Made by a program: the position numbers and the translations under genes. Shown piece after piece: positions 1-10,041 of a stretch of 10,041 nt of DNA. The stretch's first letter is position 1. Each line of letters starts with the position of its first letter. A model generated the notes under the pieces. The model was not told where the DNA came from. It saw nothing but the letters and a program-made list of their open reading frames with translations, and made no database searches. Origin of the DNA: a virus; UHGV virus genome UHGV-1984318. One strand, written 5' to 3'.

Positions 1-1
1 T

Positions 2-814
2 TCATCGACTATTGAATATTTCTCCCTTACTGGCGCAACCACCGTTGGTGCCGCTTTGTATGTTGCACAGCCATCGCTGATGGTGCAGAAAGGTATTGCC
101 GGAACCTACTGTAAAACTCCATTCGCTGATTCCTATGCGTTCATCAGCAATCCGGCAACAGGTGCGCCGTCTGTATACATCATCGGCTCCGGTCAGGTAT
201 CACCAATCGCCAGCGCGAGCATTGAGAAAATTCTCCGCTCCTACACTGCTGATGAACTGGCTGAGGGTGTGATGGAGTCTCTGCGATTTGATGCTCATGA
301 GTTGCTGATTATCCACCTTCCGCGCCATGTTCTCGTGTACGACGCATCTTCAAGCGCCAATGGTCCGCAATGGTGTGTGTTGAAAACTGGCTTGTATGAC
401 GATGTGTACCGCGCTATCGACTTCATTTACGAAGGCAATCAGATAACGTGCGGCGATAAGCTGGAATCCGTGACCGGGAAATTGCAGTTCGATATCAGCA
501 GCCAGTACGACAAGCAGCAGGAACACCTGCTGTTTACTCCGTTGTTCAAAGCGGATAACGCCCGGGTGTTCGACCTTGAGGTTGAATCTTCAATTGGCGT
601 TGCGCAGTACGCTGACCGCCTGTTCCTCTCTGCAACCACTGACGGCATCAATTACGGGCGTGAGCAGATGATTGAGCAGAATGAACCGTTCGTTTACGAC
701 AAACGCGTTTTGTGGAAGCGAGTAGGGCGCATCAGGAAAAATGTCGGTTTCAAATTGCGCGTTATCACGAAGTCACCTGTCACTCTGTCTGGTTGCCAGA
801 TAAGGATTGAGTAA
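2..814 (+). CDS. gp10: Tail hub / head-completion protein, gp10-like; C-terminal ~270 codons only (5' end lies upstream of the window)
   Basis: Frame is open from nt 2 to TAA at 812-814 with no in-frame stop; the ORF-track start at 56 is an in-frame TTG, so the true start is outside the window. Stop overlaps the ATG of the next gene (TAATG). Assigned by synteny directly upstream of the tail needle gene, as in the P22 order 10-26-14-7-20-16. Confidence 0.75.
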
Positions 815-1515
815 TGGCTGATTCGAATCTCAATGAGCCGGTAACAATTCAGGCTACACGACTCGATACATCAATCCTTCCACGCAATATATTCAGCCAG
901 TCTTACCTGCTGTATGTCATTAATCAGGGGGCTGATGTCGGCGCAATTGCCGGGAAGGCAAATCAGGCTGGTCAGGGCGCTTACGATGCGCAGGTGAAAA
1001 ACGATGAACAGGATGTCGAACTGGCTGACCACGATGCAAGAATCTCCGCAAACACAAAAGCGATAAATCTCCTTGAGGTCAGGTTAACAACTGCCGAAGG
1101 GAAGATAGTCGTACTGCGTAGCGATGTTGATTACTTGCTGGATGAGGTTATCGATATTCAGGCGCATCTGGTCACTGTTGACCAAAGACTGGATGACGTA
1201 GAAAACGATGTCTCTGGCATTAAGAGTGATTACGTATCGAAAACCGTAACCGAATTGCAGTCTCTTGAGTCACCGCTGGATGTAAAAACATCATATTCAG
1301 TTGATGGAATTCAGGTTGTTGGAGCAAGAAATACCGGATGGACTGCAGCCACAGGTACGCCACTTCTTGGCTCATTCAACGCTAACCAGTCATACACTGT
1401 CGGCACTACGTACACACAATCCGAAGTCGCAGCTCTCGCTACAGGTTTGCAGCAGGCGCGGCAGCGTATTCTGGCGCTTGAAACGGCACTTAGATTACAT
1501 GGGCTGATTGACTGA
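814..1515 (+). CDS. gp26: Tail needle (cell-envelope-penetrating fibre), P22 gp26-like, 233 aa
   Basis: 233 aa, the length I recall for P22 gp26. N-terminus [32 protein letters not shown] and C-terminus ..RLHGLID match my memory of P22 gp26; heptad-rich central region fits a trimeric coiled coil. SD AAGGA at 802-806 with 7-nt spacing; TAATG overlap upstream and TGATG overlap downstream. Confidence 0.9.
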
Positions 1516-1970
1516 TGATTACATTCAAACCAACGCGAAACATCGACCTGATCGAAGCAGTCGGAAATCACCCTGACATTATCGCTGGTAGCAACAACGG
1601 TGATGGATACGACTACAAACCTGAATGCCGTTACTTTGAGGTGAACGTGCACGGGCAGTTCGGCGGCATTGTTTACTATCAGGAGATTCAGCCGCTGACA
1701 TTCGATTGCCACGCCATGTACCTGCCAGAGATTCGCGGCTTCAGCAAGGAAATCGGGCTGGCGTTCTGGCGATACATTCTGACTAACACCACCGTTCAGT
1801 GCGTCACATCGTTCGCTGCGCGCAAATTCCGCCACGGTCAGATGTACTGCGCAATGATTGGCCTTAAGCGTGTAGGAACCATCAAGAAATACTTCAAAGG
1901 CGTGGATGACGTGACTTTTTACAGCGCCACACGCGAAGAACTAATCGACTTCCTGAATCACGGGAGATAG
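1515..1970 (+). CDS. gp14: gp14-like virion assembly/ejection-associated protein, 151 aa
   Basis: ATG at 1515 overlaps the upstream stop (TGATG); stop TAG at 1968-1970 lies 2 nt before the next start. Position between the tail needle and first ejection-protein gene matches P22 gene 14. Product inferred from synteny only. Confidence 0.7.
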   Translation: MITFKPTRNIDLIEAVGNHPDIIAGSNNGDGYDYKPECRYFEVNVHGQFGGIVYYQEIQPLTFDCHAMYLPEIRGFSKEIGLAFWRYILTNTTVQCVTSFAARKFRHGQMYCAMIGLKRVGTIKKYFKGVDDVTFYSATREELIDFLNHGR

Positions 1971-1972
1971 CC

Positions 1973-2661
1973 ATGTTATATGCATTTAAGCTGGGCAGAA
2001 AACTGCGCGGCGAGGAACCTTATTGCCCTGAAAAAGGCGGAAAAGGTGGCAGTTCTGATAAAAGCGCAAAGTATGCAGCAGAAGCTCAGAAGTATGCCGC
2101 AGACCTGCAAAATCAGCAGTTCAACACCATCATGAATAACCTGAAGCCGTTTACTCCTCTGGCTGAGAAGTATGTCGGCAGCCTCGAGAACTTATCGTCT
2201 CTGGAGGGGCAAGGTCAGGCACTTAACCAGTATTACAACTCTCAGCAGTATAAAGACCTTGCAGGTCAGGCTCGCTATCAGAGTCTGGCGGCAGCGGAAG
2301 CAACAGGTGGATTGGGTTCCACCGCAACCAGTAATCAGTTAGCAACAATCGCACCAACGCTTGGTCAGCAATGGCTATCTGGACAAATGAACAATTACAA
2401 CAACCTGGCAAATATCGGTCTTGGCGCTCTTCAGGGGCAGGCAAACGCCGGGCAAACATATGCCAACAACATGAGCCAGATTTCACAGCAAAGCGCTGCG
2501 CTGGCGGCGGCGCCAACCGACCGTCAGCATTGCAGCAGGGTGTTAGTGGTGCTGCATCCGGTGCGCTTTTGGGTGGTGGCATAGCCAGTGCTCTCGAGCT
2601 ATCAACTCCGTGGGGTGCTGGTATCGGTGCTGGTCTTGGTCTGCTTGGCTCGTTGTTTTAA
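1973..2661 (+). CDS. gp7: Ejection (E) protein, P22 gp7-like, with the reading frame interrupted by an apparent 1-nt deletion near 2505-2515 (possible pseudogene or sequencing error)
   Basis: ATG at 1973 with SD GGGAGA at 1962-1967. Frame A is protein-like (Q/N/A/G-rich) up to ..SQQSAALAAA at about 2512, then reads junk and stops at 2584. The overlapping frame reads ..ANRPSALQQGVSGAASGALLGGGIASALELSTPWGAGIGAGLGLLGSLF to TAA at 2659-2661, directly before the next gene's SD. Span 1973-2661 is 689 nt, i.e. 229 codons plus 2 nt; P22 gp7 is 229 aa as I recall. The switch falls in gcgctggcggcggcgccaacc (2496-2516). Confidence 0.7.
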
Positions 2662-2671
2662 GGGGTAATCA

Positions 2672-4087
2672 ATGGCTACGTGGCAACAGGGTATTAATTC
2701 TGGTGGTTTTCTGGCTGGCATCGGTACGCAAAATGAGAATGCGCCAAAGGCAAGCGACATTAACGCAACGCTTGGTCTGATCCGCGAAAACAATGAACTG
2801 GCTCGCTCAGGTGTAAATAACGTTGGCCTGACCGCGTTACGTGGTCTGGCTGGAGTTGCTGATATTTACAATCAGGAACAGCAACAGAAAGCGATTAGTG
2901 CGTTCAATAAGGTTCATGCTGATGCATGGGCTTCTGGTGATCCATCGGGACTATTTAAGTTTGCCCAGGAAAATCCAGCGTTTGTTGCACAGGCACAACA
3001 GGCGTTTTCAGGTCTTAATGATCAGCAACGCAACGATATGGGCGATTTAGCCATGAGGGCTAACGTCGCTCTTTCTCAGGGACCGGAAGCCTACAGTAAA
3101 TTCATTACTGACAACAAGGACAGGTTAAATCGCGTGGGGGCGAATGCTGACTGGATGATTCAGACAGGTATCCAGAATCCAGAGCAGCTATCACACATGC
3201 TGACTACTATGTCTCTCGGTGCGCTTGGACCAGAAAAGGCGTTTGCTGTTCAGGACAAGATGGCTGGTCGTGAAATTGACCGAGGCAGACTGGCAGAGAC
3301 AATCCGCAGCAATCAGGCTGGAGAAGCACTTCAGGCGAGAGGGCAAAACCTTTCCTATCAGTCAGCAATGACTGGGCACAATATCGCAGCACAACGCTTG
3401 GCTCTGGATCAGCAAGAGTTCGGGTTTAAGATGCAGCAAGCGCAGGAAAAGGCTCAGCAGTTGATTAGCGAAGCACCTAAGCTGTCAGTAAACATGGAAA
3501 AAGGCATCGAGACGGCTGTAAACAATGCCACAGCATCATCAAACTCAGCCAATTCCATGAGTGCGCTTGCTCAACAGTTCAGAGCAGAAAAACCAACGAC
3601 AGGTTTGTTCGGTAACGCACAGAACATGTTCGCAAAACTTACCGGAAGCGATACGACATTGCGTGATTTGCGCATTCGCCAAAATGCCCTTGTTAACAGT
3701 CAGGTTCTTAAATTCCTACCTCCCGGCCCAGCAACGGATAAAGACGTTGAGATCGTTCGACAGGGTGCGCCAACTGACATGGATAACCCTGAGACGGTCG
3801 CAAGATGGCTTGATGCAATGGCAAACCTTGAGCGACGAAACGCGCAGTTTAATGAGTTTAAAGCCGAGTGGATGAGCGCGAATGGCAACCCTGGACAATC
3901 GCGTAATGGCGGTCAGATATTGGGGTTGGATGTTAAAAAAGGTGAATCATTGGGGAGTGCCGTTAAGCGGTATATGTCATTGAATACTGACGCAGCGCCA
4001 GCACAAGATTCGACACCTTCAGGAGAACCACGGAATCAGGTTGGATCATATACCTCAAAATCAGGCATTCAATTTACGGTGGAATGA
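2672..4087 (+). CDS. gp20: Ejection (E) protein, P22 gp20-like, 471 aa
   Basis: ATG at 2672 with SD AAGGGG at 2661-2666 (5-nt spacing). 471 aa matches the size I recall for P22 gp20. Stop TGA at 4085-4087 overlaps the next start (ATGA). Assigned by synteny and size. Confidence 0.85.
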
Positions 4088-6090
4088 TGAAAGTTACTGC
4101 AAACGGTAAGACATTTACCTTTCCTGATGGTACGAGCACCGAAGATATTGGCACCGCCATTGATGAGTATTTTGCTGGTCAGTCAGCACCAACACAACAA
4201 GGTGTTCAGCAATCGCCAGCAGACAACTCACTTGCATCAGGATATGCACAGCTTGCCACTCAGCAGAAGGAAGGACTAGATCGCTCTGCTGAGCAAGGGG
4301 CTGTTTTAGGTGCTGCAATGCGCGATGCCGTTACCGGTGAAAGCCGAATGACACCAGAAATGGAGAGACTGCAAAATGTTGGGTCTGCTCCAGAGCTTAA
4401 TAGCTTAAGCACTGATGCGCTGCGTGCTGGATTGGGGCAGCTATTTGGTTCCGACGCTTCACAGGAGAAAATACTGCAAAGTATTGGCGGGAAAATCCGG
4501 AAGGATGAGAAGGGAAATTCCATCGTCACTCTTCCTTCAGGGGAATATGTACTTAACAAGCCTGGTTTGTCACCGCAGGATATAACGTCATTCTTGGCAA
4601 ATGCTCTTGCATTCACTCCAGCAGGTAGAGCTGCGTCTGTTGTAGGTGCAACACTAAAATCAGGCGCTACTGATTTAGCTTTACAGGGTGCCACTAAGAT
4701 CGCTGGCGGTGAGAATGTTAATCCAGTTCAAACTGCAATTTCTGCTGGTCTTGGTGGGGTACTGAAGGGTGTAGAAAACACCGCAAGCGCAGTGTCTCGT
4801 TCTGCTATGGGTAAGATTGCTCCTGAAAAACAAGCTCAGATTGACTTTGCCAAGCAGAACAACTTGCCACTGATGACAACAGATCTTGTGGAACCGGGAA
4901 CAAATATTGGTAAGCAAGCACGAGCTATGGCTGAGCGAATCCCAATAGCCGGAACAGGTGGGATAAGAAATGCACAGCAAAAGGCCAGGGAAGATTTAGT
5001 TAGAACATTTAGCGATAATGTTGGTGGAATATCTGACGCACAACTTTACCAATCAGCTACTCGTGGTCAGCAGCAATTTATTCAGGCTGCTGGCAAGCGG
5101 TACGACAGGATCATCAGTTTGATGGGGGATACTCCTGTTGACATCACTGGAACAGTGAAAGCAATTGATGAGCAGATTTCCAAGTTAACTCGCCCAGGAG
5201 TATCGCAAGACCGCTCAGCTGTTTCTGTCCTTCAACAGTTTAGAAATGACATCACCAGCGGTCCAAATAACCTGCAATTAGCTAGAGAAAACCGTACAAA
5301 CTTACGTAAGCGCTTTATGGCAGCACCTGACGAGGTCGATAGAGATACGCTGGAGAAAGCTGCGCAGTCTGTTTATAACGCATACACAACAGACATGAAA
5401 AAAGCGGTTGGCGCAAAACTAGGTGCGAAGGAAGCGCAAAACATGTCGCGTGTTGATCGTTCTTGGGCAAAGTTCAACGACATGATGAGCAATACACGTG
5501 TCCAAAAAGCTATTCAGAGTGGTAAAACAACGCCAGAAGATGTCACTAAACTAGTATTCAGCCAAAGCCCAGCGGAAAGGGCGCAACTTTATCGATTGCT
5601 TGATGATAGTGGGCGTCAAAATGCTAGAGCAGCACTTGTTCAGCGTGCAATGGATAAGGCGACAAGCGATTCAGGAAAGCTTAGCGTTGAGAAGTTTATT
5701 AATGAAATGAAAAGGAATCGGAAGCAGGCTGAGACGTTCTTCAGAGGAGAGCATGGGAAACAGCTTGATGGGATAATGAAATATCTTGATTCCACTAGAC
5801 AGGCAGCTACTGCTGCCGCAAGCCCACTAACAGGGCAAATGGTAGCTGGTCCAGCAGCGCTGATAACAGCTCTTGCGTCTGTTACAAATCCAATGTTTGC
5901 AAAAGTTGCGGCAGTTGGAGCTGGTATCGGTATGGCTGGCAGGGGCTATGAGTCACGCGCGATGAGGAACGCATTACTAAAGTTAGCAAACACGCCAAAA
6001 GGAAGTACTGCTTATGATAGAGCGATCAGACGGGTATCTGAAACTCTTACACCTCTAATTCAGGCTTCAAGTGAGAAAGCCCAGCAGTAA
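4084..6090 (+). CDS. gp16: Ejection (E) protein, P22 gp16-like, 668 aa
   Basis: ATG at 4084 overlapping the gp20 stop; a second in-frame ATG at 4087 has better spacing from GGTGG (4078-4082) and may be the true start. Long uninterrupted frame to TAA at 6088-6090, ~50% GC. Last large gene of the late block before the immI-type region, as gene 16 is in P22. Confidence 0.85.
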
Positions 6091-6098
6091 AAAGTTGG

Positions 6099-6419
6099 TT
6101 AGCGGTTGATGGTTGCTTTTTTCGGGTCATACCATCTCGGCCATTCTTTCAGGAATGGGAATGAGTCGGGAGCGTGGTTCTTTTTGTACGATTTAAGCAG
6201 CCTTAACCGCTCAATCGCACACTCATAAACCTCTTGTTGCCCTGTAGTCATCTCGGTCCATGAAAGGTGATCCATTGATAAGACAACGTTTTCAGCTTCT
6301 TTTATGAGGGCGTTTTTATTTCTCACCGCAGCAGCATGGCTGACAGAGCAATCCTGCCATATTCTTAAAAGCCAAATAGCTAAGCAGATGAAAAAAATGG
6401 TAGAGAGCGATATGTACAT
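6099..6419 (-). CDS. Hypothetical membrane-anchored protein, 106 aa (cargo gene 3)
   Basis: ATG at 6419-6417 with a strong SD (AGGAG, complement of 6426-6430, 6-nt spacing); stop TAA at 6101-6099. N-terminal hydrophobic segment MYISLSTIFFICLAIWLLRIW followed by a Trp/Pro/Lys-rich soluble region. AT-rich. No homologue recognised. Confidence 0.6.
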   Translation of the reverse strand: MYISLSTIFFICLAIWLLRIWQDCSVSHAAAVRNKNALIKEAENVVLSMDHLSWTEMTTGQQEVYECAIERLRLLKSYKKNHAPDSFPFLKEWPRWYDPKKATINR

Positions 6420-6443
6420 GCCGATCTCCTTAGATTTATCAAT

Positions 6444-6478
6444 GCTGCATGATTTTCAACAGACATCAATCATGCAGC
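6444..6478. repeat. Perfect 11-bp inverted repeat (gctgcatgatt / aatcatgcagc) with a 13-nt loop, between cargo genes 2 and 3
   Basis: 6444-6454 gctgcatgatt pairs perfectly with 6468-6478 aatcatgcagc. No U-tract follows on either strand, so it is not a canonical intrinsic terminator. Confidence 0.6.
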
Positions 6479-6499
6479 TATAGGTAATAAATCAAGAAA

Positions 6500-7012
6500 C
6501 TATTGAGAACGTTTGTCTTTTTGAGACTCTAATATAGCCAATACCTTATAAAGAGATTGGTTTGTTGAGTCTAATTTTTGATCAGTGTTATCAATCCTTG
6601 ACTGTAATACTGATTGGTTGTTTTGGATAGTAGCCATTATCTCTGCCTTACTGGTTTGGATGTTTCCTGTTAGCTCTTGTCGTGATGATTCAACTTTATC
6701 ATCTATAGTGCCTCGAATCGTCCATGTGGCGGCAACGATAGAACCAATGATAGCAACTGCAACCCCGTATAGCTCTAAACGTTTCACGGTATCACGACCT
6801 TCTTCTTTGTGTTGCTCTTCTTGTAGGCTAAATATTTGTGGTTCCTTTGACGGATTTCTGCCAGTTGGTCTGTAATACTCTGAATATTTAGCGTTTTCTA
6901 TTGAACTCCATAACGATTTGTCAAAGTCAAGGTTTTCATGTTGGCTTTGAGCATCTCCATAAATACTAGGTGATTTATTGTGAACATGTTGGTCAAACAT
7001 TATCTCCATCAC
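6500..7012 (-). CDS. Hypothetical single-pass membrane protein with coiled-coil-like C-terminal region, 170 aa (cargo gene 2)
   Basis: Minus-strand ORF with possible starts GTG 7012, ATG 7009 or ATG 7000; stop at 6500. One strongly hydrophobic helix LELYGVAVAIIGSIVAATWTI mid-protein, acidic/polar N-terminal ~80 aa, heptad-like Q/N/S-rich C-terminal ~70 aa. Its 5' end overlaps the 3' end of the upstream ORF. Sampled GC ~30-38%. Confidence 0.65.
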   Translation of the reverse strand: MMEIMFDQHVHNKSPSIYGDAQSQHENLDFDKSLWSSIENAKYSEYYRPTGRNPSKEPQIFSLQEEQHKEEGRDTVKRLELYGVAVAIIGSIVAATWTIRGTIDDKVESSRQELTGNIQTSKAEIMATIQNNQSVLQSRIDNTDQKLDSTNQSLYKVLAILESQKDKRSQ

Positions 7013-7340
7013 CCTTTACGAATTTTCCAGAAGAGATATTTTCACTAACTTTGTTTAAACTAAAAAAGTGGAAGAAACCGCAAGTGGTGCATTGCATGGC
7101 TACCATGTTAAGACTATCGTTGCTATAAGTATCTTGATTAACAGGATTATTAGGCAAGCTTTTACCTGGTATGGATGGTCCTATAACTTCAACACCATCA
7201 TCTTTTTTAAGATGCTCCGGTGCTAAAAGAGTCCAGTTTGTATTGCTGCATATTGGGCATACATAAGTTTTTTTGAATGAAGTCAAGTAATTACTAAAAG
7301 ACTCAAAAGTAACTTTTAAGTATTGCTCCTTACTGCTCAT
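6993..7340 (-). CDS. Hypothetical small four-Cys (CxxC..CxxC) zinc-ribbon-like protein, 115 aa (cargo gene 1)
   Basis: ATG at 7340-7338 shares one base with the mnt stop (TAATG on the minus strand); SD-like GAGG ~7 nt upstream; stop TGA at 6995-6993. Contains C-P-I-C and C-T-T-C separated by 53 residues. AT-rich. No homologue recognised. Confidence 0.6.
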   Translation of the reverse strand: MSSKEQYLKVTFESFSNYLTSFKKTYVCPICSNTNWTLLAPEHLKKDDGVEVIGPSIPGKSLPNNPVNQDTYSNDSLNMVAMQCTTCGFFHFFSLNKVSENISSGKFVKGDGDNV

Positions 7341-7579
7341 TATTGGCCTCGAATCTTCTTAAGTACGCTAATTGCAATATCCATTGCTTCCTTCTCTGTT
7401 TTTGTGAGATCTTGAGATGTCGATGGTATGACCTTTTCTCTGTTAATCTTAATCCATAGCTGTATTGCAGCTATGATTTCAGCATTGATAGAGCGCCTGT
7501 TTGTTGCCGCAATGTGAGTAAGCTGCTGCTTGATTTCACTTGGCATTCTTACGTTAAATTGTGGATCGTTTCTAGCCAC
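7340..7579 (-). CDS. mnt: Mnt-like ribbon-helix-helix repressor (maintenance-of-lysogeny repressor of the antirepressor), 79 aa
   Basis: GTG start at 7579-7577 with SD AGGAG (complement of 7586-7590, 6-nt spacing). N-terminus MARNDPQFNVRMPSEIKQQL..NRRSINAEIIAAIQ resembles P22 Mnt (MARDDPHFNFRMP..GRSMNSELLQIVQ as I recall), i.e. the RHH beta-strand and helices. Divergent from arc/ant, as in P22 immI. Confidence 0.85.
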   Translation of the reverse strand: MARNDPQFNVRMPSEIKQQLTHIAATNRRSINAEIIAAIQLWIKINREKVIPSTSQDLTKTEKEAMDIAISVLKKIRGQ

Positions 7580-7598
7580 GTCGCTCTCCTGTTATTTG

Positions 7599-7627
7599 TT
7601 GACATGCTAGAACGGTAGTAGTACGCT
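7599..7627 (+). promoter_or_regulatory. Pant-like promoter for arc-ant: -35 TTGACA (7599-7604), 17-bp spacer, weak -10 TACGCT (7622-7627)
   Basis: Consensus -35 hexamer; the -10 matches only the T-A....T positions. Lies ~45 nt upstream of the arc start. The arrangement (TTGACA-TG-TAGAA.. with operator sequence in the spacer) resembles my recollection of P22 Pant. Confidence 0.5.
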
Positions 7628-7632
7628 TTCAA
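7604..7632 (-). promoter_or_regulatory. Pmnt-like promoter on the minus strand: -35 TTGAAA (complement of 7627-7632), 17-bp spacer, -10 TAGCAT (complement of 7604-7609)
   Basis: Hexamers read on the minus strand with 17-nt spacing. The -10 overlaps the -35 of the divergent plus-strand promoter, as expected for face-to-face Pant/Pmnt. A start ~7597 would give a short leader to the mnt SD. Confidence 0.4.
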
Positions 7633-7653
7633 TAGTAGTACGGTGCTATCATT
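7604..7653. promoter_or_regulatory. Candidate Arc/Mnt operator region: TAG-rich repeats including a 10-bp direct repeat TAGTAGTACG (7616-7625 and 7633-7642) and an imperfect palindrome centred on 7642
   Basis: Direct repeat seen 17 bp apart. aatagtagtac-g-gtgctatcatt (7631-7653) is 8/11 symmetric about G7642, with core TAGTAC-G-GTGCTA. ATGCTAGAA at 7604-7612 resembles the left half of the P22 arc operator as I recall it. Confidence 0.45.
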
Positions 7654-7672
7654 TAATGGAATGGAGTGGAAT

Positions 7673-7834
7673 ATGCAAGGCGCAAGAAAAATGCCGCAGT
7701 TCAATTTGCGGTGGCCTAAAGAAGTATTGGATTTGGTACGCAAGGTGGCGGAAGAGAATGGTCGGTCTGTTAACTCTGAGATTTATCAGAGAGTAATGGA
7801 CAGCTTTAAGAAGGAAGGGCGTATTGGCGCGTAA
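7673..7834 (+). CDS. arc: Arc ribbon-helix-helix repressor, 53 aa
   Basis: ATG at 7673 with SD GGAG at 7663-7666 (6-nt spacing); stop TAA at 7832-7834. Sequence [53 protein letters not shown] is nearly identical to P22 Arc as I remember it. The ORF-track start at 7643 is an upstream in-frame GTG without an SD. Confidence 0.9.
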
Positions 7835-7838
7835 AGTT

Positions 7839-7870
7839 GAAGCCCCAACTGCGGGAACAGTCAGGGCTTC
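7839..7870. other. Stem-loop in the arc-ant spacer: 7-bp outer stem gaagccc/gggcttc plus 4-bp inner stem actg/cagt
   Basis: 7839-7845 pairs with 7864-7870 and 7848-7851 with 7858-7861. Followed on the plus strand by a moderately U-rich tgttgt. This is the position where P22 has the sar antisense-RNA region; function here is not established. Confidence 0.4.
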
Positions 7871-7902
7871 TGTTGTCAGTAAATTCGTGGAGAAAAACCA
7901 AC

Positions 7903-8805
7903 ATGAATAGTATAGCAATTTTAGAAGCAGTGAACACCTCTTACGTACCTTTCAATGGTCAGCAGATTATCACCGCCATGACTGCCGGAGTTGCATATGT
8001 TGCGATGAAGCCAATCGTTGAAAACCTTGGAATGAGCTGGTCAACGCAGCAAACAAAACTCATGAAGCAGATTAGCAAATTCAACTGTGTTCATATGAAC
8101 ATGGTTGCCGCTGATGGTAAGCTTCGTAAGCTACTCTGCCTTCCTTTGAAGAAGTTAAATGGATGGCTGTTCAGCATCAACCCTGAGAAAGTTCGTGCTG
8201 ACATCCGCGATAAACTGATTCAGTACCAGGAAGAATGCTTTACTGTGCTGCATGACTACTGGACGAAGGGAAAGGCAGAAAATGCACGTAAGAAAACATC
8301 TGTTGATGACAGGACTCCGCTTCGTGATGCTGTAAATATGCTAGTCAGCAAAAAGCATCTAATGTACCCAGAAGCTTATGCAATGATTCATCAGCGTTTC
8401 AACGTGGAAAGTATTGAAGAGCTTGATTCATCTCAGATACCGCAAGCAGTAGAGTACATCCACAGGGTAGTGCTTGAAGGCGAGTTCATCGGCAAACAAG
8501 AGAAGAAAACCAACGAGCTTTCTGCAAAAGAAGCAAACAGCCTTGTATGGTTATGGGATTATGCCAACCGCTCACAGGCATTATTCCGCGAACTGTATCC
8601 GGCGCTAAAACAAATTCAATCGAACTATTCCGGCAGATGCTACGACTACGGTCATGAGTTCTCGTATGTTATCGGAATGGCGAGAGACGTTTTAATCAAT
8701 CACACACGAGATGTTGATATTAATGAACCAGACGGACCAACGAATCTTTCCGCATGGATGAGACTTAAGAATAAAGAATTACCTCCTTCAGTACATAACT
8801 ACTGA
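7903..8805 (+). CDS. ant: Antirepressor Ant, 300 aa
   Basis: ATG at 7903 preceded by GTGGAG (7888-7893); stop TGA at 8803-8805; 300 aa as I recall for P22 Ant; lies directly downstream of arc. The ORF-track start at 7837 is an in-frame TTG immediately after the arc stop, adding 22 residues that span the stem-loop and are probably not translated. Confidence 0.85.
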
Positions 8806-8823
8806 CAGATAACCAACGCAACG

Positions 8824-8847
8824 ACCCAGCTTCGGCTGGGTTTTTTT
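8824..8847 (+). terminator. Rho-independent terminator downstream of ant
   Basis: Perfect GC-rich 6-bp stem cccagc/gctggg (8825-8830 / 8835-8840) with A-T extension, TTCG tetraloop (8831-8834), followed by seven T (8841-8847). Confidence 0.85.
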
Positions 8848-8896
8848 ATGCCCAAAATTCACCGCAGCAACTAAGCGGCGATGGCCTTGATGGATA

Positions 8897-8919
8897 GCAC
8901 TACACAAAAAGTGTAGTGC
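8897..8919. repeat. Perfect 9-bp palindromic hairpin gcactacac-aaaaa-gtgtagtgc in the tailspike leader
   Basis: 8897-8905 pairs with 8911-8919 around a 5-A loop. No U-tract follows, so it is not a canonical terminator. A 10-bp perfect palindrome cgtagctacg lies at 8941-8950. Confidence 0.4.
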
Positions 8920-8983
8920 AAAAAGCAAACAAATACTCACCGTAGCTACGCTGCGGAGATTCATTGTATCTGGAGCAAATTAA

Positions 8984-10041
8984 ATGACAGACATTACAGC
9001 CAATGTGATTGTATCGATGCCTTCGCAACTCTTCACTATGGCCCGCTCTTTTAAAGCCGTAGCCAATGGTGAAATTTATATCGGTAAAATTGACACTGAC
9101 CCGGTAAACCCTGAAAACCAGATTCAGGTTTATGTGGAGAACGAAGACGGCTCTCACGTTCCTGTTTCGCAACCAATCATTATTAACGCTGCTGGATATC
9201 CGGTATATAACGGACAGATTGCCAAATTCGTAACCGTGCAAGGCCATTCTATGGCTGTTTACGATGCTTATGGCACTCAGCAGTTTTATTTTCCAAATGT
9301 ATTAAAATACGATCCAGATCAGTTTGGCCCAGACTTCAAAGAGCAGTTATCTCAATCAGGAGCATACATTAATGATGATTCAAAAGGTGATGCATTAATT
9401 GGGGTAAGGCAGCCATTTACCGGGGCTGTAACTATAACTCAGCATGAAAACAATGCTCTTTTCTTAAATGTAAAACAATTTGGAGCAATTGGGGATGGGA
9501 AATATCATCCATTATCTGAGTGGTTTTCTTCAATTTCTGAAGCAAAATCCTTATATCCTTTTGTTGACTCATTATCTCAGTCAATAGACTGGGCCGCGTG
9601 GCAAGCTGCCATTAACACAGGAAAGGTTATTTATGGTACTGATAATGCGTATGTAATAACGGATACGTTAACACCTGTTTCTGGTGGTGGGATAATTGGT
9701 CTTGGTGTGGGCAAATGGGTCTCTGGATATACTGCAACATTTGCTCCTGATATTACCACAGGGACCACATTCCTGATGTACGGTGTAGGAAATAAAAAAT
9801 ATACTGTAGATTGTGTTTCTAATATGGATGTTAGTGGTGGTGTGGTTTCTAATCCATCTTCCGAAGACCCGTATACAACAACGGCACCTGCGTCATCATA
9901 TGATTTATTGGATTTTACTAACGGTGATGCTAATGGGGCTACAAGAGCCACGCTTAAACCATTCTCTGCCGCAATATTGATGCCAGAGACAGGATGTGTT
10001 CGCCTTGAGAACTTTCGTATTGTTCCATATTTCAATGGGCT
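8984..10041 (+). CDS. gp9: Tailspike protein, 5' ~352 codons (3' end beyond the window): conserved P22-family head-binding domain plus start of a beta-helix receptor-binding/depolymerase domain
   Basis: ATG at 8984 with SD GGAG at 8972-8975 (8-nt spacing). I translated the frame by hand and found no stop up to the window end. N-terminus [68 protein letters not shown] matches the shared head-binding domain of P22/Sf6/HK620-type tailspikes as I recall. Downstream ..[30 protein letters not shown].. is a pectate-lyase-like beta-helix entry motif. The ORF track misses it because it has no in-window stop. Confidence 0.85.

What the first reader, a model, noticed from the sequence alone, without database searches (positions are those of the whole stretch)
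2496..2516. Frameshift interrupting the gp7-like ejection-protein gene inside a GCG repeat
The protein-like reading switches frame within gcgctggcggcggcgccaacc. Frame A gives ..SQQSAALAAA then junk to a stop at 2584; the other frame gives ..ANRPSALQQGVSGAASG.. and a glycine-rich hydrophobic tail to the stop at 2661. The start-to-stop span is 689 nt, one nucleotide short of 229 codons plus stop, consistent with a single-base deletion. gp7-type ejection proteins are needed for infectivity in P22, so if real this prophage cannot make infectious particles without complementation. Alternatives are a sequencing/assembly error in a GC-rich repeat or, less likely, programmed frameshifting.
Basis: seen in the sequence. 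Interest (0 to 1): 0.5.

Follow-up and report, generated by a model that had tools for sequence, protein, structure and literature searches.

The report
Four-base deletion breaks phage gene 7
A well-known DNA-injection gene (gene 7) of a P22-like E. coli phage carries a 4-base deletion in this metagenome contig that shifts the reading frame and cuts off its conserved tail; this is either an ordinary knockout mutation or an assembly error.

Summary
ORF 1973-2584 matches Pfam P22_gp7 positions 1-186 of 230. The -1 frame from 2512 to the stop at 2661 matches positions 182-230.

The window is a complete 10,041-bp JGI/IMG contig. It is 99.93% identical to an E. coli prophage (GCA_044000395.1), differing by 3 SNPs and this single indel. 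That relative and every other one examined encode one uninterrupted gp7 of 229-231 aa.

The deleted junction is absent from 5,426 complete E. coli genomes, 50,697 phage records, GTDB species representatives, IMG/VR and JGI metagenomes. The intact junction occurs in 256 E. coli genomes.

The predicted product keeps residues 1-180, gains 23 out-of-frame residues and loses the conserved glycine-rich hydrophobic C-terminal 50 residues. All three P22 ejection proteins are required for DNA injection, so the allele is most likely null.

Programmed frameshifting is rejected. Without reads I cannot separate a real recent mutation (about 0.6) from an assembly or sequencing error (about 0.35). "Prophage" cannot be shown from the window, which has no host flank. 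The finding is ordinary and of low interest.

The parts
1973..2584 (+). Frameshifted gene 7 ORF: 203 aa, made of gp7 residues 1-180 plus 23 out-of-frame residues and a TAG stop. It includes the N-terminal leader and the KGGKG motif that matches the mature P22 gp7 N-terminus.
   Evidence: (PF25688 positions 1-186/230, 368.8 bits); mature N-terminus Lys-Gly-Gly-Lys-Gly in PMC8402733
2510..2512 (+). Deletion junction. Four bases (CAAA/AAAC) present in all relatives are missing here. Codon 180 reads GCG instead of GCA, and the frame shifts after it.
   Evidence: junction 40-mer absent from all collections, intact 44-mer present
2512..2661 (+). Displaced 3' part of gene 7 in the -1 frame. It encodes gp7 residues 182-230, the glycine-rich hydrophobic tail, plus a TAA stop. 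It is 100% identical to the intact relative L006.
   Evidence: (PF25688 positions 182-230, 57.8 bits; weak Gly-zipper_YMGG match)
1515..1970 (+). Gene 14 homologue (head morphogenesis), intact, upstream neighbour
2672..4087 (+). Gene 20 homologue (ejection protein, 471 aa), intact. The exact protein also occurs in E. coli assemblies.
4087..6090 (+). Gene 16 homologue (ejection protein, 667 aa), intact. It carries 2 SNPs versus L006, one synonymous and one A155V.

Best explanation
The contig carries a recent, genuine 4-nt deletion (CAAA/AAAC) in gene 7 of a P22-like (Lederbergvirus) E. coli phage or prophage. Translation from ATG 1973 reads gp7 residues 1-180, shifts frame, adds 23 unrelated residues and stops at 2584. 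The conserved 50-residue glycine-rich hydrophobic C-terminus (still encoded, out of frame, at 2512-2661) is not made. By analogy with the P22 7-amH1375 fragment, the truncated protein would probably still be loaded into procapsids, because residues 21-154 suffice for that. It would probably fail to help build the DNA-delivery conduit. The expected result is DNA-filled particles that cannot inject unless wild-type gp7 is supplied in trans. Shown here: the deletion, its uniqueness, the gene identity and the conservation of the lost segment. Inferred: that the deletion exists in the biological sample, and that the allele is null.
For: The window differs from E. coli prophage L006 by 3 SNPs and one 4-nt gap over 10,041 nt. 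There are no other indels and no homopolymer-length errors, so the consensus looks high quality. A lone 4-nt loss in a non-homopolymer context is not a typical read error (own knowledge). All relatives have a single 229-231 aa ORF. Pfam P22_gp7 splits across the two frames. The 203-aa product is recorded from JGI/IMG on one contig of 10,041 bp, so the lesion is in the deposited contig. Among 9 relatives the C-terminal 50 codons show pN/pS of about 0.34, end in the invariant motif STPWGA.IG.G.GLLGSLF and form the most hydrophobic segment of the protein. [quoted passage not shown] The 7-amH1375 fragment (codon 155) is incorporated into virion-like particles (PMC8402733). Sequence downstream of the junction is identical to the intact relative, so if the event is real it is recent.
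Against: The deletion is seen in this one contig only and nowhere else. No reads or coverage data are available, so an assembly or consensus error cannot be excluded. No experiment has tested a truncation at residue 180. The lost tail evolves faster than the rest of gp7 (pN/pS 0.34 versus 0.07).
Confidence: 0.58

Rival explanations
1. Sequencing or assembly artefact: the real genome has the intact 693-nt gene 7, and the 4 bases were lost during consensus calling in a GC-rich stretch of a metagenome assembly.
For: It is the only indel against a 99.93%-identical relative whose gene is intact. The junction is found in no other genome, phage, virome or metagenome record, whereas the intact junction occurs in 256 complete E. 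coli genomes and 8 phage records. The downstream frame shows no further decay. The contig is a short metagenome fragment, and its coverage is not known to me.
Against: The other 10,037 bases show no indel at all, which argues against an error-prone consensus. A 4-nt deletion outside a homopolymer, with only 1 nt of microhomology, is not a usual Illumina or long-read error signature (own knowledge).
Confidence: 0.37
2. Programmed -1 ribosomal frameshifting, or a functional two-piece gene 7 made of a 203-aa N-terminal protein plus a separately translated C-terminal peptide.
For: The downstream frame is open from ATG 2371 to 2661, and the two frames overlap by about 70 nt after the junction.
Against: None of the relatives has a two-frame arrangement; all are single ORFs. 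There is no X XXY YYZ slippery heptamer at 2496-2516 (read directly). The ATG-2371 ORF would carry 47 out-of-frame residues and overlaps the conserved gp7 frame. Procapsid incorporation depends on the N-terminal part (PMC8402733), so a free C-terminal peptide would not be packaged.
Confidence: 0.02

Closest known systems
Gene 7 (DNA ejection / DNA transfer protein gp7) of Lederbergvirus phages: the E. coli prophage in GCA_044000395.1, CUS-3, HK620, N7, HZ41 and P22
   Same: The gene order is 10-26-14-7-20-16-immI-tailspike. DNA identity is 99.93% to the E. coli prophage over 10 kb and 92-98% to CUS-3, HZ41 and HK620 over gene 7. The Pfam P22_gp7 match, the N-terminal leader and the KGGKG motif are all present.
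   Different: Four bases are missing at codons 180-182, so the single 230-codon frame is split into two frames. All relatives examined are uninterrupted.
P22 conditional-lethal nonsense mutant 7-amH1375 (codon 155)
   Same: Both give a C-terminally truncated gp7 that retains the procapsid-binding N-terminal part. The P22 mutant fragment is incorporated into virion-like particles (PMC8402733).
   Different: Here the truncation is by frameshift after residue 180, with a 23-residue out-of-frame extension, in an E. coli phage. Its phenotype has not been tested.
T7 gp14-like outer-membrane ejection proteins (the functional class assigned to gp7 in the review PMC8954989)
   Same: Same proposed role as the smallest of three ejection proteins, which forms the virion-proximal, outer-membrane part of the DNA conduit.
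   Different: No sequence relationship was tested here, and no solved structure matches gp7 by sequence.

Membership tests
P22_gp7 (Pfam PF25688) DNA ejection protein | Profile match above the curated cut-off (28 bits) | tested here: met
   The 203-aa ORF scores 368.8 bits, and the 49-aa downstream-frame segment scores 57.8 bits.
P22_gp7 (Pfam PF25688) DNA ejection protein | Full-length coverage of the 230-position profile in one reading frame | tested here: not met
   Frame A covers positions 1-186 and the -1 frame covers 182-230. The intact relative L006 covers 1-230.
P22_gp7 (Pfam PF25688) DNA ejection protein | Synteny: located between gene 14 and genes 20 and 16 of a P22-like late operon | tested here: met
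   Annotated relatives and the Pfam families of neighbouring genes agree with this order.
P22_gp7 (Pfam PF25688) DNA ejection protein | N-terminal 20-residue leader followed by KGGKG, the mature N-terminus after OpdA cleavage in P22 | tested here: met
   Window residues 21-25 are KGGKG. The P22 mature N-terminus is given in PMC8402733. Cleavage itself is not testable here.
P22_gp7 (Pfam PF25688) DNA ejection protein | Packaged in the virion, ejected, and required for DNA delivery | not testable with these tools
   Known only from P22 genetics.
Programmed ribosomal frameshift (recoding) site | The two-frame arrangement is conserved among homologues | tested here: not met
   Every relative examined has a single ORF. 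The intact junction occurs in 256 E. coli genomes and the deleted junction in none.
Programmed ribosomal frameshift (recoding) site | Slippery heptamer X XXY YYZ at the frame junction | tested here: not met
   In frame, the sequence is GCG GCG GCG CCA ACC GAC, which contains no such heptamer (direct reading).
Decaying (cryptic) prophage pseudogene | Integrated in a host chromosome and carrying multiple inactivating lesions | tested here: not met
   The window has no host flank or integrase. All other genes in it are intact, and the window differs from L006 by only 3 SNPs.

The most novel reading that the evidence does not exclude
The 4-nt deletion is real and the phage is still viable. This could be because the conserved glycine-zipper-like C-terminal tail of gp7 is dispensable, or because a truncated gp7 is maintained as a variant that is packaged and interferes with conduit assembly in mixed infections. 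Either case would revise the view that the hydrophobic tail is the functional, membrane-active end of gp7.
Probability: 0.03. Interest if true: 0.4.

Novelty: already known. Interest (0 to 1): 0.1.

Why it matters
It matters little beyond annotation. If real, this is one more example of a temperate-phage genome disabled by a small frameshift in an essential virion gene, and the gene should be annotated as a gene 7 pseudogene rather than as two ORFs. The natural allele truncates gp7 after residue 180 and removes only the conserved hydrophobic tail. It could therefore serve as a ready-made construct to test what that tail does in assembling the DNA conduit. If it is an artefact, it is a caution about indels in metagenome contigs.

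Tried and rejected
1. Exact-junction pattern scans of GTDB representative genomes, IMG/VR and JGI metagenomes returned nothing. Even the window's own contig was not returned, so the sample of origin could not be identified.
2. Exact-protein look-ups of the 203-aa product and of gp16 found no gene position. Only the cluster table showed that the product comes from one 10,041-bp JGI/IMG contig.
3. A 40-nt junction query found no match in complete E. coli genomes or in phages. The control with the intact 44-mer worked, so the negative result is not a filter artefact.
4. A PDB sequence search with intact gp7 found no solved relative.
5. The 2026 preprint on the in-situ P22 translocation channel, listed, could not be opened. 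The structural role of the gp7 C-terminus therefore rests on conservation and hydropathy only.
6. Programmed frameshifting and a genuine gene end at 2584 followed by an independent downstream gene were both considered. Both are rejected on the homologue evidence.
7. A single-base deletion was rejected by alignment.

Full report
**What is in the sequence.** The ORF starting at ATG 1973 runs to TAG 2582-2584 and encodes 203 aa, ending ...SQISQQSAALAAA-PTDRQHCSRVLVVLHPVRFWVVA*. The frame one base back reads (A)NRPSALQQGVSGAASGALLGGGIASALELSTPWGAGIGAGLGLLGSLF* and stops at TAA 2659-2661. The span 1973-2661 is 689 nt.

**Gene identity and context.**
- The region is 85-98% identical at the DNA level to gene 7 of P22-like phages (Lederbergvirus), including HZ41, EC.P3, E212, CUS-3, phiv205-1, N7, HK620 and many Salmonella phages. 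In these records it is annotated as a DNA transfer, injection or ejection protein.
- Pfam P22_gp7 (PF25688, 230 positions) matches the 203-aa ORF over positions 1-186 at 368.8 bits. It matches the 49 aa of the downstream frame over positions 182-230 at 57.8 bits. The intact relative matches positions 1-230.
- The window carries the canonical order: gene 10 (3' end), 26 (tail needle, 233 aa), 14, 7, 20, 16, three minus-strand ORFs of unknown function, an Arc/Mnt-like repressor, arc, ant with the sar antisense RNA, and the 5' third of a tailspike gene.

**Nature of the lesion.**
- Multiple alignment with CUS-3, HZ41, HK620 and phiv205-1 shows that the window lacks four bases: GCGGCGGCAAACGCCAAC has become GCGGCGGCGCCAAC.
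- The closest relative was found through the exact gp20 protein. It is E. coli assembly GCA_044000395.1, contig DAZYMQ010000039.1 (locus L006), a prophage with an integrase next to host genes.
- The entire window aligns to L006 at 99.93% identity. The differences are three substitutions and one 4-nt gap after window base 2510. The substitutions are 4530 (synonymous, gp16), 4550 (gp16 A155V) and 9111 (tailspike H43P).
- L006 reads ...gcg gcg gca aac gcc aac cga ccg... (A A A N A N R P).
Close relatives have 693-nt genes (230 aa), while P22-type genes have 690 nt.
- The deletion abuts the 3' end of a (GGC)3 run, with only 1 nt of microhomology.

**Uniqueness.**
- The exact 203-aa product is in the 15-billion-protein collection only from JGI/IMG, on one contig of 10,041 bp. 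The window is therefore a complete metagenome contig, and the lesion is in the deposited sequence.
- The other listed members of its 2,245-member 90% cluster are 227-231 aa long.
- A degenerate 35-nt junction pattern that matches the window has no match in GTDB species-representative genomes, IMG/VR or JGI metagenome contigs.
- A 40-nt query centred on the junction matches nothing in 5,426 complete E. coli genomes or 50,697 phage records.
- The control 44-mer carrying the four bases matches 256 E. coli genomes and 8 phage records over its full length.
- In one search, all 60 best full-length E. coli matches to the 131-nt query span 135 nt.

**Consequence for the protein.**
- The product keeps residues 1-180, because codon 180 changes from GCA to GCG and remains Ala. 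It gains 23 unrelated residues and loses residues 181-230.
- Among nine intact relatives the lost segment is glycine-rich and ends in the near-invariant STPWGA.IG.G.GLLGSLF. It contains the most hydrophobic 19-residue windows of the protein.
- The lost segment is under purifying selection (pN/pS of about 0.34), although less strongly than codons 30-180 (0.07). It also gives a weak match, below the Pfam cut-off, to a glycine-zipper family.
- In P22, all three ejection proteins are needed for K+ release and DNA injection (PMC10461980).
- In P22, the amber fragment of 7-amH1375 (codon 155) is still incorporated into virion-like particles, which maps procapsid binding to residues 21-154 (PMC8402733).
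- gp7 is classed as the gp14-like, outer-membrane component of the conduit (PMC8954989).
- My inference is that the truncated protein would be packaged but non-functional, giving particles that cannot inject unless they are complemented. This has not been tested for a truncation at residue 180.

**Real mutation or artefact.**
- For a real mutation: over 10 kb there is no other indel against L006, so the consensus is not generally error-prone. A 4-nt loss outside a homopolymer is not a typical read error (own knowledge).
- For an artefact: the lesion is unique to one short metagenome contig. The downstream frame is still identical to the intact relative. No read data are available.
- I put the real mutation at about 0.6 and the artefact at about 0.35.

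**Other readings rejected.** Programmed frameshifting or a functional split gene is rejected at about 0.02. No relative has the two-frame layout, and there is no slippery heptamer at the junction. The alternative that the gene truly ends at 2584 with an independent gene downstream is rejected by the same homologue evidence.

**On "prophage".** The window has no integrase, attachment site or host DNA. It begins in gene 10 and ends in the tailspike gene. Only the near-identical L006 is demonstrably integrated. The contig could come from a lysogen or from packaged DNA. Particles lacking a functional ejection protein are still made in P22.

**Verdict.** This is an ordinary frameshift, a 4-nt deletion, in a well-characterised phage gene. 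It belongs to an already known kind of feature and is of low interest. The only small value is that, if real, it is a natural allele that removes just the conserved C-terminal tail of gp7.

Noticed in passing
window 1-10041: The window is an entire 10,041-bp JGI/IMG contig. It is 99.93% identical to a prophage in E. coli assembly GCA_044000395.1 (contig DAZYMQ010000039.1), differing by 3 SNPs and the 4-nt deletion. The contig breaks inside gene 10 and about 1 kb into the tailspike gene.
   Followed up: yes
window 7835-7902 (-): Rfam sar RNA (RF00262) matches at 91 bits over the full-length model. It lies antisense to the start of the ant gene in the immI region (mnt-like 7340-7579 on the minus strand, arc, and ant ending at 8805).
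   Followed up: partly
window 6099-6419, 6500-7012, 6993-7340 (all -): Three minus-strand ORFs (106, 170 and 115 aa) lie between gene 16 and the mnt-like repressor. They have no Pfam match and match only PHROGs of unknown function (phrog_10450, 24865, 4293). From memory, this is roughly where P22 carries sieA. They are conserved in phage N7 and in L006.
   Followed up: partly
window 814-1515 (+): The tail needle gene 26 encodes the short 233-aa form, as in CUS-3 and L006. Phage N7 and the E. coli prophage L007 have a 282-aa form, and the L007 product carries a Phage_tail_NK Pfam hit. This looks like a mosaic boundary within otherwise similar late operons.
   Followed up: no
window 8984-10041 (+): The tailspike gene runs off the contig end. 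The head-binding domain (PF09008, residues 1-113) is conserved. Similarity to most phages stops near 9325, where the receptor-binding part begins. There is one non-synonymous SNP (codon 43, P here versus H in L006).
   Followed up: partly
window 4530 and 4550 (+): Two C-to-T differences from L006 lie 20 nt apart in gene 16, one synonymous and one A155V. Apart from 9111, they are the only substitutions in the whole contig.
   Followed up: partly
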